Part shown: piece after piece, positions 3,097-6,533 of the stretch
Layout: each line of letters starts with the position of its first letter
How positions within the stretch are numbered: position 1 is the first letter of the stretch
Origin: a virus
Taxonomy: Duplodnaviria > Heunggongvirae > Uroviricota > Caudoviricetes
Virus record (IMG/VR): IMGVR_UViG_2548876862_000011
Location: 1 to 6,533 of that record
Reading direction: 5' to 3' (one strand)
Length of the DNA stretch: 6,533 nt
The notes under the pieces: generated by a model
What the model was told of the DNA's origin: nothing
The model's database searches: none
The model's input: only the letters and a program-made list of their open reading frames with translations
Made by a program: the position numbers and the translations under genes

Positions 3097-3198
3097 ACAG
3101 CCTTCCCCTGAATAAATTAACCGCCACTTGCCATTCCGTACAGAAGTCGGATATCCTTCGCCCGAAAAGCATGAAACACATTTCTGCCATGCTAAAGA

Positions 3199-3236
3199 GA
3201 AACCCCGGTATCAGCAGATACCGGGGTTTTCTTTCA
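3199..3236. terminator. Perfect 10-bp GC-rich hairpin with U-rich tracts on both sides; candidate bidirectional intrinsic terminator
   Basis: ccccggtatc (3203-3212), loop agca, gataccgggg (3217-3226); A/T pairs extend the stem at the base. Plus-strand 3' flank is ttttctttc; minus-strand 3' flank reads tttctcttt. Confidence 0.45.
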
Positions 3237-3301
3237 TGCCCACCGATAATCCTGTTGGTTAAAACCGGTAATGGCATAAAAATTCTGAATATCTTCACAT
3301 T

Positions 3302-3329
3302 TTCACACACTGACTGTGGCGCTTATAAT
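3302..3329 (+). promoter_or_regulatory. Candidate sigma70 promoter: -35 TTCACA, 16-bp spacer, -10 TATAAT
   Basis: TTCACA at 3302-3307 (5/6 match to TTGACA), TATAAT at 3324-3329 (6/6), A/T-rich region immediately upstream (3261-3300). Points toward gene I, antisense to the tail operon. Confidence 0.4.
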
Positions 3330-3335
3330 TTCGCT

Positions 3336-3433
3336 GCGTTAGTGTTTTTTTGCCCGAGTAACAAAAACAACTCCTTAACATTGATCTTCATTTGTCTGTC
3401 CCCGCAGCTCCGCGATCACTGCGGGATTTTTTT
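3336..3433 (+). ncRNA. Hypothetical small RNA of about 100 nt defined by the promoter at 3302-3329 and the terminator at 3401-3433
   Basis: Promoter-to-terminator spacing fits a short transcript starting near 3336. No ATG and no SD on the plus strand within it. Contains CUCCUU (3371-3376), complementary to a Shine-Dalgarno sequence. Inferred from sequence only. Confidence 0.25.
3401..3433 (+). terminator. Rho-independent terminator, plus-strand orientation only
   Basis: Stem cccgcag (3401-3407) / ctgcggg (3419-3425), 11-nt loop, followed by attttttt (3426-3433). On the minus strand the hairpin is preceded rather than followed by the T-run, so it should not terminate tail-operon transcription. 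Confidence 0.6.
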
Positions 3434-3438
3434 ATGTT

Positions 3439-4119
3439 TTATCCCTGTCGCCCGACAACCACGACCGTTCCGCCCCCGCCTTCATCACGGGTGCTGATGT
3501 CCTGGGATATACGGCGGGAGCCAACCAGCATTTCCCCGTAAGGCACCGGCATCGGGTTCCCCTGGGCAATCATGTTATCCAGCGAGGAAAAGTACGTGTT
3601 CTGTCTGCCGTTATCCGTTGCGCGGTAATCCGGTGTTTTTGCCTTCGGGGCCAGCATCTGGGCCACACCGCCCAGAATCATGCTGGCTCCAAGTGAAAAC
3701 AGCATCGTGGTGGCAGAAAAACCACCGGCTGCCAGGGCTGAACCCCATAACGCCATTGATGCCCCGGCAGTGAAGAAAGAGCCCACGATGGCTGCCGCCC
3801 CCAGCACAATCTGCAGTCCACCCTTTCCGGCCCCGGCCAGTCGCGGCACAATGTGGATGACCGTTCCCTCACCCAGCTGTTCGTGAAGACGGGCGTACAC
3901 CGCCTCCGGTGCCGTGTCATAACCGGCAATACGTATCTGGTACCAGCCTTCGTTCATCTGACGGCGAAAGCCCGGCACCTGTAACGACAGCGCCCGGATG
4001 GCTTCCGCTGCCGTGTTCACATACAGGCTGAGGCGGCGGCCAAATCGTTGCAAATCCCCGTGAAGGCAGATGCGTGCCAGTGGCGGTGACGCCAGACAGA
4101 ATGCGTTCGTCGTTGCCAT
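3439..4119 (-). CDS. I: Tail assembly protein I-like (ubiquitin-like N-terminal domain family), 226 aa
   Basis: ORF with ATG at 4119-4117 and stop TAA at 3441-3439; SD-like GGAGAGG about 10 nt upstream. Protein (MATTNAFCLASPPLARICLHGDLQRFGRR...GGGGTVVVVGRQG) resembles lambda gpI as recalled. Starts 103 nt inside the 3' end of K in another frame. Confidence 0.9.
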   Translation of the reverse strand: MATTNAFCLASPPLARICLHGDLQRFGRRLSLYVNTAAEAIRALSLQVPGFRRQMNEGWYQIRIAGYDTAPEAVYARLHEQLGEGTVIHIVPRLAGAGKGGLQIVLGAAAIVGSFFTAGASMALWGSALAAGGFSATTMLFSLGASMILGGVAQMLAPKAKTPDYRATDNGRQNTYFSSLDNMIAQGNPMPVPYGEMLVGSRRISQDISTRDEGGGGTVVVVGRQG

Positions 4120-4760
4120 TTTTCGGAATACCTCTCCCGTTTACTCAGTTGTTCAGGCAGATGGTGAAGCAGCTCACCGTTGCCGCAGTAAATGGCGGCA
4201 TGGTTCGGTACCGAAGCACCAAAGCAGCACAGCAGAATATCGCCCGCCTGTGCAGAGGACAGGGGCACCCGGTAAAAGCCGGTGACCGCCATATTGTCCA
4301 GGTAAAGGTTCTGACCGTTGCGCCACCAGTCATCCTCGCGATGAAAATCCGGCATTTCAGTCCCCGCCAGATGATAAGCATCCCGGAACAGCGTGTAACA
4401 GTCCGTCACCCCGTGCTCAAAGCGCCGTCCTGTCAGATGTGGCACACAGCGGAATTTGTGAATGTCACCCCGGCAGACCAGCCACCAGGGCAGTGCGCTT
4501 TTTATCTGCAGCCGCCGGTCAGCCTCGCTCAGCCAGGGCAGCCCACCGGGATGACTGTGGACCAGTGCCACAATCTCCCCCTGCATCTCTGCCCGCAGCC
4601 AGTCTTCCGGTGCGATACGAAAATACGCCTCCGGCTCTGCAGAAATATTCACACAAGGGATATACCACTCCCCCTCCGGCGTGCTTATCACGAAGCCGCA
4701 CGACTCCGCAGGCACACACCGCCGGGCATGCGCCAGAATCGCTGATTCTGTCTGTGTCAT
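4017..4760 (-). CDS. K: Tail assembly protein K-like with JAB/MPN (JAMM) metalloprotease motif and NlpC/P60-like region, 247 aa (long form)
   Basis: ORF ATG 4760-4758 to TGA 4019-4017. JAMM signature H-S-H-x7-S-x2-D present as HSHPGGLPWLSEAD (residues 68-83), with an upstream Glu in PAESCG. Downstream Cys/His-containing region (GVTDCYTLF ... HAAIYCG) fits NlpC/P60. Starts 5 nt after the L stop, with no obvious SD, suggesting translational coupling. Confidence 0.85.
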   Translation of the reverse strand: MTQTESAILAHARRCVPAESCGFVISTPEGEWYIPCVNISAEPEAYFRIAPEDWLRAEMQGEIVALVHSHPGGLPWLSEADRRLQIKSALPWWLVCRGDIHKFRCVPHLTGRRFEHGVTDCYTLFRDAYHLAGTEMPDFHREDDWWRNGQNLYLDNMAVTGFYRVPLSSAQAGDILLCCFGASVPNHAAIYCGNGELLHHLPEQLSKRERYSEKWQRRTHSVWRHRHWHASAFTGICNDLAAASACM

Positions 4761-4765
4761 TGGAT

Positions 4766-5464
4766 TTACTGCGAAAGTTTGTTAATGGAAAGGAAACCGC
4801 CAAAATTAGCCACCATGCCGCGCATCTCACACCCGCGCATGCACTTGCTGCATCTGTCCTTACGGATATCGGTGGTGGGTTTATCGAACTCATCCGCCAC
4901 CGCAGGACCGTTATACCCGCATTCATCTCCCCGGTAATCCCACATACAGGTGTTCGCCAGCATGATGCGACCGGGAAACAGCGCCCCATCCGTCTCGGTC
5001 GGTGTAGCCAGCACAAACGAGGCCGTCATGGCTGTCAGCTGCGACATCTGCTCCACCACCCAGCGGTCACTCAGCTCCTGCTCCGGGTCCGCCTCCGGAT
5101 TGCCCGCAACGAAATTCACCGCATCCAGAAAACGGGCATACACCCGGCGGCGGACCACCGTGGCCCCCACCAGACTCTGCAGGTCCTCCGCCATCCCGGT
5201 GACAAGGCCAAACAGATTGGACACCGTCAGCGACGGGCGGGCACTGCTGCCCCGGCCGTTCATCTCAAAGCCGCTGCCGTCAATCGGGTATGCCTCATAC
5301 TTACGCCCCTGCCAGGTGACCGGCTCCCCTTTTTCATTCAGCTCATTACAGAAAAAATACCGCTCACCACCCTGTACCGTCAGGTCGATTTCCCAGAGTA
5401 CCACCCGCGGTGACTGCTCTGACTTAACCGACTCGTTCAGACTTTCTTCGCGAATATCCTGCAT
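4766..5464 (-). CDS. L: Minor tail / tail tip protein L-like, 232 aa
   Basis: ORF ATG 5464-5462 to stop at 4768-4766. Start overlaps the M stop by 1 nt (TGATG). SD-like AGGTGGTG upstream. C-terminal cysteine cluster (C173, C182, C205, C208, C212). Same length and position as lambda gpL. Confidence 0.9.
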   Translation of the reverse strand: MQDIREESLNESVKSEQSPRVVLWEIDLTVQGGERYFFCNELNEKGEPVTWQGRKYEAYPIDGSGFEMNGRGSSARPSLTVSNLFGLVTGMAEDLQSLVGATVVRRRVYARFLDAVNFVAGNPEADPEQELSDRWVVEQMSQLTAMTASFVLATPTETDGALFPGRIMLANTCMWDYRGDECGYNGPAVADEFDKPTTDIRKDRCSKCMRGCEMRGMVANFGGFLSINKLSQ

Positions 5465-5805
5465 CAGTTCACCACCTGCTCAATCGTACAACTGAAATCA
5501 CTGTACCTGGCGTTATCTGTGACGCTCCACTCCCGGCACACCACCCTCACCGTCCGGTTATGTTTCGGCGGTCGCCACAAAAAGGCACGGTAACCACCAT
5601 GCCAGGATAAAAATTCATCCAGCCAGCGCCGGGTTGGTTCATCCGTCACCCGGAACACCGCCTGAAACGTCTTCAGTCTGGCATTAAGTCCCGTCGGTCG
5701 GCGCTGTTCATAACCGTCACCAAACCGAACCCTCACCACCGACGGTTTCTCACTCACCTGCATCCCTTCACGCGGGACCAGATGCAGCGTTTTTATCTCA
5801 GCCAC
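5464..5805 (-). CDS. M: Minor tail / tail tip protein M-like, 113 aa
   Basis: ORF from GTG at 5805-5803 (GGAGG SD 8 nt upstream) to TGA at 5466-5464; overlaps the H stop by 8 nt. C-terminus ...CTIEQVVN matches my memory of the lambda gpM C-terminus. An internal ATG at 5763 is an alternative start but has poor SD spacing. Confidence 0.85.
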   Translation of the reverse strand: MAEIKTLHLVPREGMQVSEKPSVVRVRFGDGYEQRRPTGLNARLKTFQAVFRVTDEPTRRWLDEFLSWHGGYRAFLWRPPKHNRTVRVVCREWSVTDNARYSDFSCTIEQVVN

Positions 5806-6481
5806 TCAGCATTCCTCCGTCACGTCGCATGGACAGCATCACCGCCTGCACCCGCTGGTCAATCAGCTGCACAAGACTGCCTGCCGCCTCCGCCCCTATC
5901 TGTCCGTTAGCCCCGTCATTCTGAATGGCGATGTGGTAGACCGGGGAATACACCAGACCGGCACTGCCGTTCATACTGCCCACCGCGCGTACGCCCAGCG
6001 AGCCATCCGCCGCCCGGGTCAGGGGCATAATGGCTTCAGGTCCGGCTTCCCCCATCAGCCCGGCCCCTTTTGCAAACGCAAAGTACGTGGGCGTGTCCAC
6101 AATGCTGTTGCTGTACGCACTCAGGTTTGCCGAGGTATACACGCCGCCTTTTGCATTGGCCACCGCACCGCCCAGCCAGTCACCAATGCTGCCAATAAAT
6201 CCTCCCGCACCGGACATACCGTTTGCCGCCGTCTTAATTCCGTTGACAATCGCGGCATTCATAAGAACTTTTGAGATTTCCTGCAGTACGGATGAGGCCC
6301 AGTTGCGCCATTCCACTTTGTTTCCGTTCAGCATCTCCGTGATGTTATTCACCATCCCTGAGATACCCTCCGTCGCAAGCTGTGCTGCCTGTGAAGCGTA
6401 ATCGGATGCATTGTCCACCCAGTTACTGAGCCCCTCCTGCAAGCCTTTCTGCCAGTCCGCACGCTGCGCATCCGATTCGTA
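5798..6481 (-). CDS. H: Tail tape measure protein H-like, C-terminal 227 codons only; reading frame closed upstream by a stop at 6482-6484
   Basis: Frame is open from 6481 down to stop TGA at 5800-5798 (...YESDAQRADWQKGLQEGLSNWVDNASDY...RRDGGMLSG). Gly/Ala-rich C-terminal region and position immediately upstream of M fit a lambda-type tape measure C-terminus. The track's start at 6442 is a TTG codon, not a real start. No start codon or RBS for a full-length protein lies in the window. Confidence 0.8.
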   Translation of the reverse strand, partial: YESDAQRADWQKGLQEGLSNWVDNASDYASQAAQLATEGISGMVNNITEMLNGNKVEWRNWASSVLQEISKVLMNAAIVNGIKTAANGMSGAGGFIGSIGDWLGGAVANAKGGVYTSANLSAYSNSIVDTPTYFAFAKGAGLMGEAGPEAIMPLTRAADGSLGVRAVGSMNGSAGLVYSPVYHIAIQNDGANGQIGAEAAGSLVQLIDQRVQAVMLSMRRDGGMLSG

Positions 6482-6533
6482 TTAGACGTCAACTAGTTTT
6501 GCCGACTCGCGCCAACTATACTGGCCGCACCCT
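6482..6533. other. Non-coding segment at the window edge that interrupts the H frame; possible breakpoint or junction
   Basis: Stops in all three minus-strand frames within 6482-6533 (the H frame is closed by TAA at 6484-6482). Contains GACGTC (6485-6490) and ACTAGT (6492-6497). Confidence 0.3.

What the first reader, a model, noticed from the sequence alone, without database searches (positions are those of the whole stretch)
4017..4760. K is encoded as the long 247-aa form; the shorter lambda-style start is not available here
The JAMM Glu (PAESCG, residue 19) and the HSHPGGLPWLSEAD motif lie in the N-terminal part of the ORF. The reference lambda annotation, as I remember it, gives K as about 199 aa starting at an internal Met. 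At the equivalent codon (residue 49, 4616-4614) this sequence has ATC (Ile), so translation must begin upstream at 4760, immediately after L. This gives internal support for the two-domain JAB plus NlpC/P60 architecture proposed for this family.
Basis: partly seen in the sequence, partly recalled or inferred. Interest (0 to 1): 0.4.

Follow-up and report, generated by a model that had tools for sequence, protein, structure and literature searches.

The report
Full-length phage tail-assembly peptidase K gene
This is the ordinary full-length (247-residue, two-peptidase-domain) tail-assembly gene K of a lambda-like prophage, and the "short" 199-residue K of the lambda reference comes from one missing G in the 1982 reference sequence, not from biology.

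Summary
The minus-strand ORF 4760..4017 encodes 247 aa, with E19 in PAESCG, HSHPGGLPWLSEAD at residues 68-81, and codon 49 = ATC at 4616-4614. Its ATG lies 5 nt after the stop codon of L.

Pfam finds a complete Prok-JAB domain (residues 3-105) and an NlpC/P60 domain (111-224). An AlphaFold model matches solved JAMM deubiquitinase-like structures and NlpC/P60 structures.

The contrast is an artefact, though. The reference lacks one G after position 14266, which puts the first 44 codons of K in another frame. Independently sequenced lambda stocks, the MutaMouse lambda-gt10 transgene and 7,324 E. coli copies all carry the G. Lambda then also has a 247-aa K starting just after L.

RefSeq already annotates this gene as 744 nt in E. 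coli genomes, and the JAB + NlpC/P60 architecture was published in 2006. So the gene is already known and ordinary.

The useful by-product is a curation point. The 199-aa lambda K (UniProt TIPK_LAMBD, NP_040598) lacks half of its JAB domain, including the catalytic Glu, and is still used in recent work.

The parts
4017..4760 (-). Gene K: 247-aa tail tip assembly peptidase (stop codon at 4017-4019). The exact protein is WP_024238564.1.
   Evidence: ORF and translation. Pfam JAB + NlpC/P60. 86.6% identical to corrected lambda K. Exact match in the protein collection. PGAP annotates the same 744-nt gene in a 99.9% identical copy.
4446..4754 (-). JAB/MPN (JAMM) metallopeptidase domain, residues 3-105
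   Evidence: PF14464 Prok-JAB, E 1.6e-14, 54.2 bits against a cut-off of 25, profile positions 3-113 of 114. PDB 2kks aligns to residues 7-108. Foldseek matches to PfJAMM1 5ld9/5lda, Rpn11 and AMSH.
4704..4706 (-). Codon for E19, the JAMM catalytic Glu (in PAESCG)
   Evidence: Invariant in 34 homologues. Encoded upstream of the lambda reference start.
4518..4559 (-). JAMM zinc motif H68-S-H70-x7-S78-x2-D81
   Evidence: H68, S69, H70, S78 and D81 are invariant.
4614..4616 (-). Codon 49, ATC (Ile), the position of the ATG used as the K start in the lambda reference. A GGAGG sits 9 nt upstream.
   Evidence: The column is M16/I13/L4/V1 among homologues.
4089..4430 (-). NlpC/P60 (C40) cysteine peptidase domain, residues 111-224. 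Candidate triad C121 (4398-4400), H187 (4200-4202), H199 (4164-4166).
   Evidence: PF00877, E 7e-13, 48.9 bits against a cut-off of 23, profile positions 1-105 of 105. The triad residues are invariant. Foldseek matches to MepS, LytE and Acd33800.
4761..4768 (-). L stop codon TAA (4766-4768) plus 5-nt spacer ATCCA before the K ATG. No Shine-Dalgarno sequence, so translational coupling to L is likely.
   Evidence: sequence. The same arrangement occurs in lambda and UTI89. Coupling is inferred.
4766..5464 (-). Gene L (minor tail protein L, 232 aa)
   Evidence: PF05100, E 1.3e-91
5464..5805 (-). Gene M (distal tail protein, 113 aa)
   Evidence: PF05939, E 2.5e-28
3439..4119 (-). Gene I (226 aa), the likely substrate of K. 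It has an N-terminal ubiquitin-like domain (residues 15-97), then G100-G101 (3817-3822), then the structural C-terminal part. Its first 34 codons overlap the end of K (4017-4119) in another frame.
   Evidence: PF06805, residues 15-97 = profile positions 3-83 of 83. GG position. GGGAGAGG lies upstream of ATG 4119. Lambda gpI is resolved only from residue 101 in virions (PMC11101478).
1..3096 (-). Gene J (central tail fibre), 5' part; runs off the window
   Evidence: Frame open for 1070 codons to the window start. [21 protein letters not shown] begins at ATG 3096. PGAP names the homologue gpJ.
5798..6479 (-). 3' part of the tape measure gene (H homologue), cut at about 6479
   Evidence: Alignment to the tape measure gene of CAU16175 starts at window position ~6479..

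Best explanation
Window 4760..4017 (minus strand) is the complete gene K of a lambda-like E. coli prophage, sitting in the usual tail-tip operon order H-M-L-K-I-J.

Translation starts at the ATG 5 nt after the L stop codon, probably by coupling to L. It gives a 28.2-kDa cytoplasmic assembly enzyme with two peptidase domains:
- an N-terminal JAB/MPN zinc isopeptidase (E19, H68, H70, S78, D81);
- a C-terminal NlpC/P60 cysteine peptidase (C121, H187, H199).

By homology with lambda gpK, the JAB domain most likely removes the ubiquitin-like N-terminal domain of the next gene product, I. Cleavage would fall at or next to G100-G101, once I has docked into the growing tail tip. That leaves only the C-terminal part of I in the virion, and K itself is not incorporated. 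The role of the NlpC/P60 domain is unknown.

The 199-aa 'lambda K' is an annotation artefact. The 1982 reference lacks a G after nt 14266, so the first 44 codons fall out of frame. Annotators then chose the next ATG (Met49), which happens to follow a GGAGG.

What is shown: the ORF, the domains, the motifs, their conservation, and the reference discrepancy. What is inferred: the coupling to L, the cleavage site in I, and the enzyme activity.
For: ORF and residues.

Domains:
- Complete Prok-JAB (residues 3-105) and NlpC/P60 (111-224), both well above Pfam cut-offs.
- PDB sequence match to the JAB protein 2kks over residues 7-108, with AILAHARRCVPAESCG aligned to MLAHARQALPNEACG.
- AF2 model with pLDDT 83.4. 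Foldseek matches both NlpC/P60 enzymes and JAMM enzymes, including PfJAMM1 bound to the ubiquitin-like SAMP2.

Conservation:
- 34 full-length homologues (66-98% identity) keep all catalytic residues invariant, including those in the first 22 residues.
- Synonymous:non-synonymous codon differences against lambda are 9:5 in codons 1-48 and 55:29 in the rest, so the constraint is the same.
- 199-aa versions score only PF00877.
- RefSeq annotates 744 nt starting just after L.

Lambda reference:
- The upstream ORF is in another frame.
- +G is present in LC730321, PV340536, KT232076, DE3 and lambda imm21, each giving 247 aa.
- The whole-genome comparison places it after 14266.
- The MutaMouse lambda-gt10 variant table lists '14266 C>CG' (PMC6760142).
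- The reference allele has 0 hits in IMG/VR, the GTDB genomes and the JGI metagenomes, against at least 120 hits for +G in IMG/VR.
- None of 7,324 places in complete E. coli genomes is an exact match to the reference allele.

Mechanism:
- PMC1779556 predicted that the JAB domain of K cleaves the Ub-like domain of I.
- A 2025 talk by A. Davidson reported that gpK does this (PMC12908700).
- gpI is resolved only from residue 101 in tails, and GG sits at 100-101 in both I proteins.
- gpK is absent from virions by mass spectrometry (PMC10721106).
Against: - There is no protein-level evidence for the N-terminus of this K or of lambda K.
- No Shine-Dalgarno sequence precedes ATG 4760, whereas a GGAGG precedes codon 49.
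- The cleavage of I by K is known to me only from a conference summary, not from a paper with data.
- Two database records besides the reference (OR974322 and OR474059) carry the reference allele. OR974322 also has one real marker difference (45352 G>A) and a called 1-nt deletion, so it was not simply copied from the reference.
- The prophage here has its tape measure gene abutting an IS21-family end, so K may sit in a defective prophage and may not be used.
Confidence: 0.9

Rival explanations
1. K in this window is really made from an internal start (GTG16, GTG24, GTG37 or ATG59). The upstream codons would then be untranslated or only weakly translated, and the functional protein would be essentially the NlpC/P60 peptidase.
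For: No Shine-Dalgarno sequence lies before ATG 4760. Different pipelines choose other starts for the same gene: 211 aa from GTG37 in KT232076 and in the JGI cluster P0055, and 199 aa in many records.
Against: - The JAB profile is matched end to end from residue 3.
- Residues P17, E19, S20, C21 and G22 are invariant across homologues down to 66% identity.
- Codons 1-48 show the same synonymous excess as the rest of the gene.
- Helix 3-15 is modelled at pLDDT above 90.
- A 5-nt stop-start spacing fits the overlapping or adjacent gene junctions seen across this operon (M/L share 5464; H/M overlap at 5798-5805).
Confidence: 0.03
2. The missing G in the lambda reference is real in the stock that was sequenced in 1982. 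That phage would have made K in two pieces, or by -1 frameshifting, or only as the 199-aa NlpC/P60 protein from Met49 with its GGAGG. A short 'lambda-style' K would then be a genuine biological form that this window's phage cannot make.
For: OR974322 shares the reference allele while differing from the reference at the Sam7 site 45352 and carrying a called 1-nt deletion. Met49 preceded by GGAGG is a plausible initiation site. PHROG families of half-K proteins exist (phrog_2635, 2552 and 7305).
Against: - Every independently assembled lambda or lambda hybrid examined has the G, as does lambda-gt10 in MutaMouse.
- There is no exact hit for the reference allele in three large de novo collections or in 7,324 E. 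coli copies.
- The 76-aa frameshift product is absent from about 15 billion predicted proteins.
- The only canonical slippery heptamer (T TTC CCC) lies upstream of a stop in the K frame, so it would be unproductive, and there is no homopolymer run of 6 or more.
- The same comparisons also show a second shared 1-nt indel (138 delG), which is typical of errors in the old sequence.
- PMC9119081 states that 9 differences from the published sequence are common to extant laboratory strains.
Confidence: 0.05
3. The ORF is intact but is a relic in a defective prophage. It would then not be expressed, or would be irrelevant to any phage particle.
For: The tape measure gene stops matching at window position ~6479. 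There it abuts 54 nt that match the end of a multi-copy IS21-family element (IstA/IstB upstream in plasmid CP025890). No complete E. coli genome has the junction.
Against: - K, L, M and I are all intact and under purifying selection.
- The IS junction is at a contig end, so only one junction is seen.
- This reading does not change what the gene encodes.
Confidence: 0.3

Closest known systems
Bacteriophage lambda gpK (tail tip assembly protein K), as encoded by resequenced lambda (e.g. LC730321, PV340536)
   Same: Same operon position (L-K-I-J), same length (247 aa), 86.6% identity, the same ATG a few nt after the L stop, the same JAMM and NlpC/P60 residues, and the same 103-nt overlap with I.
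   Different: Residue 49 is Ile here and Met in lambda. There are 33 other substitutions. The host prophage is of the PPompW / Stx-phage tail type (98% DNA identity), not lambda itself.
Lambda K as annotated in J02459 / NC_001416 / UniProt TIPK_LAMBD (199 aa)
   Same: Residues 49-247 here align with the whole 199-aa protein.
   Different: The reference entry lacks residues 1-48, that is helix 1, the catalytic Glu and the first two strands of the JAB domain. The cause is the absent G after 14266. It scores only NlpC/P60 in Pfam.
TAPK family of Iyer, Burroughs and Aravind 2006 (JAB + NlpC/P60 next to the ubiquitin-like TAPI)
   Same: Exactly this architecture and gene neighbourhood (PMC1779556).
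   Different: None found; this is a typical member.
Archaeal/prokaryotic JAMM deconjugases (P. furiosus JAMM1 with SAMP2, PDB 5lda; H. volcanii desampylase)
   Same: Same fold and motif, and a ubiquitin-like substrate ending in Gly-Gly.
   Different: About 20% identity. The NCBIfam desampylase model scores far below its cut-off (27 against 130 bits). Here the ubiquitin-like domain is an N-terminal part of the substrate polypeptide, not a conjugated modifier, and the enzyme is fused to an NlpC/P60 domain.

Membership tests
JAB/MPN (JAMM) metallopeptidases, Pfam PF14464 Prok-JAB | Profile match above the curated cut-off, covering the whole domain | tested here: met
   54.2 bits against a cut-off of 25; residues 3-105 = profile positions 3-113 of 114
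JAB/MPN (JAMM) metallopeptidases, Pfam PF14464 Prok-JAB | JAMM motif E...H-x-H-x7-S-x2-D | tested here: met
   E19, H68, H70, S78 and D81, all invariant in 34 homologues
JAB/MPN (JAMM) metallopeptidases, Pfam PF14464 Prok-JAB | MPN fold | tested here: met
   AF2 model with pLDDT above 90 over most of residues 1-100. Foldseek matches 5ld9/5lda (TM 0.64 on the target), Rpn11, AMSH and CSN5. 2kks matches by sequence.
JAB/MPN (JAMM) metallopeptidases, Pfam PF14464 Prok-JAB | Zinc-dependent (iso)peptidase activity | not testable with these tools
   Only a conference summary reports that lambda gpK cleaves gpI (PMC12908700)
NlpC/P60 (MEROPS C40) cysteine peptidases, Pfam PF00877 | Profile match above the curated cut-off | tested here: met
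   48.9 bits against a cut-off of 23; residues 111-224 = profile positions 1-105 of 105
NlpC/P60 (MEROPS C40) cysteine peptidases, Pfam PF00877 | Catalytic Cys at the start of a helix, plus His and a third polar residue | tested here: met
   C121 starts helix 121-131. C121, H187 and H199 are invariant. The assignment of the triad is by position and is inferred.
NlpC/P60 (MEROPS C40) cysteine peptidases, Pfam PF00877 | Papain-like NlpC/P60 fold | tested here: met
   Foldseek top hits are MepS 8xup, Acd33800 9ubf and LytE 8i2e
Lambda gpK / TAPK tail tip assembly protein | Encoded between L and I in the tail-tip operon, next to a ubiquitin-like I protein | tested here: met
   Pfam assignments for M, L and I; gene order
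Lambda gpK / TAPK tail tip assembly protein | Close full-length similarity to lambda K | tested here: met
   86.6% identity over 247 aa without gaps to K of resequenced lambda
Lambda gpK / TAPK tail tip assembly protein | Needed for tail assembly but absent from the virion | not testable with these tools
   Literature on lambda only
'Short' 199-aa K as in the lambda reference annotation | ATG at the codon aligned to lambda Met1 (residue 49 here), with no in-frame coding sequence upstream | tested here: not met
   Codon 49 is ATC and the frame is open and conserved upstream. In lambda itself the feature exists only in the reference sequence, which lacks a G.

The most novel reading that the evidence does not exclude
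The 1982 lambda stock really lacked the G after 14266 and was still viable. The N-terminal half of the JAB domain would then be dispensable or able to act in trans. More generally, phages with GGAGG-N9-ATG at codon 49 would also make a 199-aa NlpC/P60-only isoform from an internal start (like lambda C/Nu3 or S107/S105). The phage in this window (Ile49) would be a natural variant lacking that isoform.
Probability: 0.05. Interest if true: 0.45.

Novelty: already known. Interest (0 to 1): 0.18.

Why it matters
For this window it matters little. The gene is a textbook member of a family present in about 80% of complete E. coli genomes, and RefSeq already annotates it correctly.

The practical value lies in what the comparison exposes. 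The most-cited lambda records (J02459, NC_001416, UniProt TIPK_LAMBD) give a K protein missing its first 48 residues, which include half of the deubiquitinase-like domain and its catalytic Glu. The cause is a single-base discrepancy.

That truncated entry still shapes recent work:
- A 2020 review analysed gpK as 199 aa and saw only 'a peptidase domain' (PMC7291167).
- A 2025 ORF-library screen cites NP_040598.1 for lambda gpK.
- About 11,000 member sequences sit in 199-aa clusters.

Anyone cloning or modelling lambda K, or studying the K-I ubiquitin-like processing step, should use the 247-aa form.

Tried and rejected
- **Contigs carrying the 199-aa call.** I looked for the reference allele among contigs on which the exact 199-aa lambda K had been called. 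The ten longest-contig places all carry +G or unrelated homopolymer errors, so the 199-aa calls come from start choice or assembly errors. The tool could not reach the 20-50 kb whole-lambda contigs that might stem from commercial lambda DNA.
- **The 76-aa frameshift product.** I looked it up in the 15-billion protein set. It is absent. This is weak negative evidence, because gene callers may skip an ORF that overlaps another.
- **DE3 as a Sam7-lineage control.** The deposited DE3 S gene is wild type, so this is uninformative.
- **-1 frameshifting in reference lambda.** The only slippery heptamer is unproductive.
- **Literature.** I found no paper stating that lambda K is 247 aa or explaining the discrepancy. 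I found only a variant table and an unitemised remark about '9 differences'. My searches cover open-access text only.
- **RNA families.** Rfam scan of the whole window: nothing.
- **Candidate small transcript.** The predicted fold of the candidate antisense transcript in the I-J gap is not better than shuffled sequence (z = -1.0).
- **Other libraries.** NCBIfam has no K-specific model; it gave only sub-threshold desampylase and phage NlpC hits.

Full report
**1. What is in the window**

All long coding frames lie on the minus strand and form the tail-tip part of a lambda-like operon.

| Gene | Coordinates | Evidence |
|---|---|---|
| Tape measure (3' part) | 6479-5798 | alignment to CAU16175 |
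| M | 5805-5464 | PF05939 |
| L | 5464-4766 | PF05100, E 1e-91 |
| K | 4760-4017 | see below |
| I | 4119-3439 | PF06805 |
| J (start) | 3096-1 | frame open to the window edge |

- The window is a whole 6,533-bp contig. The exact K protein is WP_024238564.1.
- The closest phage records are PPompW-type and Stx-phage tail regions at 96-98% identity.
- The closest complete genome is E. coli CAU16175 at 99.9%.

**2. The observation**

- The ORF is 247 codons.
- E19 (GAG) is at 4706-4704, inside PAESCG.
- HSHPGGLPWLSEAD is at residues 68-81.
- Codon 49 is ATC at 4616-4614.
- The ATG at 4760 lies 5 nt after the L stop codon (TAA, 4768-4766). It is the first possible start after an in-frame stop.

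**3. Is the N-terminal part really coding, and is it a JAB domain?**

Yes.
- Pfam matches Prok-JAB over residues 3-105, covering profile positions 3-113 of 114 (E 1.6e-14). It matches NlpC/P60 over residues 111-224, covering the whole profile (E 7e-13).
- The PDB sequence search finds the prokaryotic JAB protein 2kks over residues 7-108, with the N-terminal helix and the P-x-E-x-C-G motif aligned.
- An AlphaFold2 model built on 34 homologues has mean pLDDT 83.4, with values above 90 over most of the first 100 residues.
- Foldseek against the PDB returns two sets of hits:
  - NlpC/P60 enzymes: MepS, LytE and C. difficile autolysins.
  - JAMM enzymes: P. furiosus JAMM1 alone and with the ubiquitin-like SAMP2, Rpn11, AMSH, CSN5 and BRCC36.
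- Three groups of residues are invariant in 34 full-length homologues at 66-98% identity:
  - P17, E19, S20, C21, G22
  - H68, S69, H70, S78, D81
  - C121, H187, H199
- Codon differences against lambda are 9 synonymous to 5 non-synonymous in codons 1-48, and 55 to 29 in the rest. Selection is therefore the same on both parts.
- Starting at residue 49 would delete helix 1, two strands and the catalytic Glu. Accordingly, 199-aa versions score only NlpC/P60.

**4. The lambda comparison**

The DNA shows why.
- In the reference, the ATG just after L (14133) is conserved and encodes MTQTESAILAHARRCAPAESCGFVVSTPEGERYFPCVNISGEPEA. The frame then runs on to a stop after 76 codons. Annotated K is in the -1 frame relative to it.
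- The reference reads GAGGC-TATTTCC where this window reads GAGGCGTATTTTC.
- Five independently determined lambda-type sequences read GAGGCGTATTTCC, and each gives a 247-aa ORF from the ATG after L:
  - Lambda_AGU (LC730321, 48,503 bp)
  - PV340536
  - KT232076
  - DE3
  - lambda imm21
- A whole-genome alignment of J02459 with LC730321 places the extra G after 14266, among 15 differences.
- The MutaMouse paper lists the same change ('14266 C>CG') and the same second indel ('137 AG>A') as constitutional variants of its lambda-gt10 transgene (PMC6760142).
- Feiss et al. report 9 differences from the 1982 sequence that are common to extant laboratory lambdas, without listing them (PMC9119081).

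Counts of the two alleles in large collections:

| Collection | Reference allele (40-mer, no G) | +G allele |
|---|---|---|
| IMG/VR viral contigs | 0 | at least 120 |
| GTDB species genomes | 0 | not scanned |
| JGI metagenomes | 0 | not scanned |
| Complete E. coli genomes (7,324 matching places) | none reaches 99% identity; the best, 98.8%, span 81 nt for the 80-nt query, i.e. one gap | not counted separately |

- Only two other records share the reference allele. OR974322 has coordinates and annotation that mirror the RefSeq record. OR474059 is marked UNVERIFIED.

I conclude, at about 95%, that the missing G is an error or a private change of the 1982 sequence, and that lambda K is also 247 aa. 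I could not inspect raw reads of the cI857 Sam7 stock, so the residual doubt is stated as a rival explanation.

**5. Why the short start was chosen**

Met49 in lambda is preceded by GGAGG (from the codons for E-P-E-A), whereas the true start has no Shine-Dalgarno sequence.
- Gene callers still often pick the short start even on intact sequence. Three of the ten places examined had an intact 247-aa ORF but a 199-aa call.
- Four 199-aa clusters hold about 11,000 member sequences.
- DE3 and the lambda hybrids keep the legacy 199-aa annotation although their DNA has the G.
- RAST-style annotation of KT232076 starts at GTG37.
- PGAP and PV340536 use the 744-nt gene.
- Residue 49 itself is just a variable hydrophobic position: M16, I13, L4, V1.

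**6. How it most likely works**

Established from the sequence: K is a two-domain peptidase encoded immediately upstream of, and overlapping, a gene whose product begins with a ubiquitin-like domain.

From the literature:
- Iyer et al. predicted that the JAB domain of K releases the Ub-like domain of I at its C-terminal glycine (PMC1779556).
- A 2025 plenary by A. [quoted passage not shown]
- gpK is not found in virions (PMC10721106).
- gpI is resolved only from residue 101 (PMC11101478).

Here, as in lambda, the I protein has Gly-Gly at residues 100-101, right after the Pfam Ub-like domain (residues 15-97).

Inferred: translational coupling of K to L; cleavage at or next to GG; and zinc-dependent chemistry through E19/H68/H70/D81. 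The function of the NlpC/P60 domain remains unknown.

**7. Novelty and verdict**

The gene, its length and its architecture are already known and already annotated this way. Its framing, that a 'lambda-style' short form exists, is an artefact of the reference sequence.

The finding is ordinary. The by-product is a useful curation note on a heavily used reference record.

Noticed in passing
window 4017-4119 (K/I overlap); I starts at 4119 versus 4020: The start of gene I is annotated in two ways. The lambda reference and the ORF here use an ATG inside K (226 aa here, with GGGAGAGG upstream). PGAP and PV340536 start I at the GTG overlapping the K stop (about 190-193 aa). The Pfam Lambda_tail_I profile begins at residue 15 of the long form, so the short form would cut off the first strand of the ubiquitin-like domain. 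The RefSeq E. coli annotation of I therefore looks N-terminally truncated, the mirror image of the K problem.
   Followed up: partly
window 3097-3438 (I-J intergenic gap): This is a 342-nt gap at 40-45% GC, against about 60% around it. On the plus strand, antisense to the tail operon, there is a near-consensus promoter (TTCACA-16-TATAAT, 3302-3329) and an intrinsic terminator (3409-3425 followed by ATTTTTTTAT). That would give a transcript of about 95 nt. There is no Rfam match, and the fold is not better than shuffled sequence. The gap is 100% identical in PPompW-type prophages and unannotated there. A second hairpin (CCCCGGTATC...GATACCGGGG) lies at about 3203-3226.
   Followed up: partly
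window 6480-6533: The last 54 nt of the contig do not belong to the tape measure gene. They match the end of a multi-copy IS21-family element (IstA/IstB genes adjacent in plasmid CP025890; up to 22 places per E. coli genome). No complete genome has this junction. The tape measure gene of this prophage therefore seems to be interrupted by an insertion sequence, and the prophage may be defective.
   Followed up: partly
window 3096 versus ~3202 (J start): PGAP starts J about 35 codons upstream of the lambda-like start (1158 aa in CAU16175). The lambda-like start is [21 protein letters not shown] at ATG 3096. The longer version would read through the low-GC gap.
   Followed up: no
L144 (J02459) positions 138 and 20832, compared with L142 (LC730321): Two further 1-nt indels separate the reference from Lambda_AGU. 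A G at 138 is absent from AGU, and this is also listed as '137 AG>A' for lambda-gt10 in MutaMouse, so it is probably a second error in the old sequence. AGU also has an extra C after 20832, inside orf-401 (19650-20855); from memory this is the position of the known laboratory-lambda (PaPa) frameshift in the side tail fibre gene stf, so AGU may carry the Ur-lambda allele, but I did not check this.
   Followed up: no
proteins P0019, P0021, P0027, P0041, P0045, P0114; PHROGs 2635, 2552, 7305: The protein collection holds L-K and K-I fusion products and families of half-K proteins (JAB-only or NlpC/P60-only). Most are probably frameshifted or mis-assembled copies. Iyer et al. also noted natural K-I fusions and NlpC/P60-only versions.
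   Followed up: no
L143 (OR974322, 'Escherichia phage Lambda isolate P6/2022/SA' from chicken cloacal swabs): This record is identical to J02459 apart from a small cluster at 45037-45041, the Sam7 site 45352 G>A, one deletion and ragged ends. It lacks the cI857 and ind1 changes and shares the reference-only allele at 14266. It looks like laboratory lambda DNA assembled against the reference, not an environmental isolate.
   Followed up: partly
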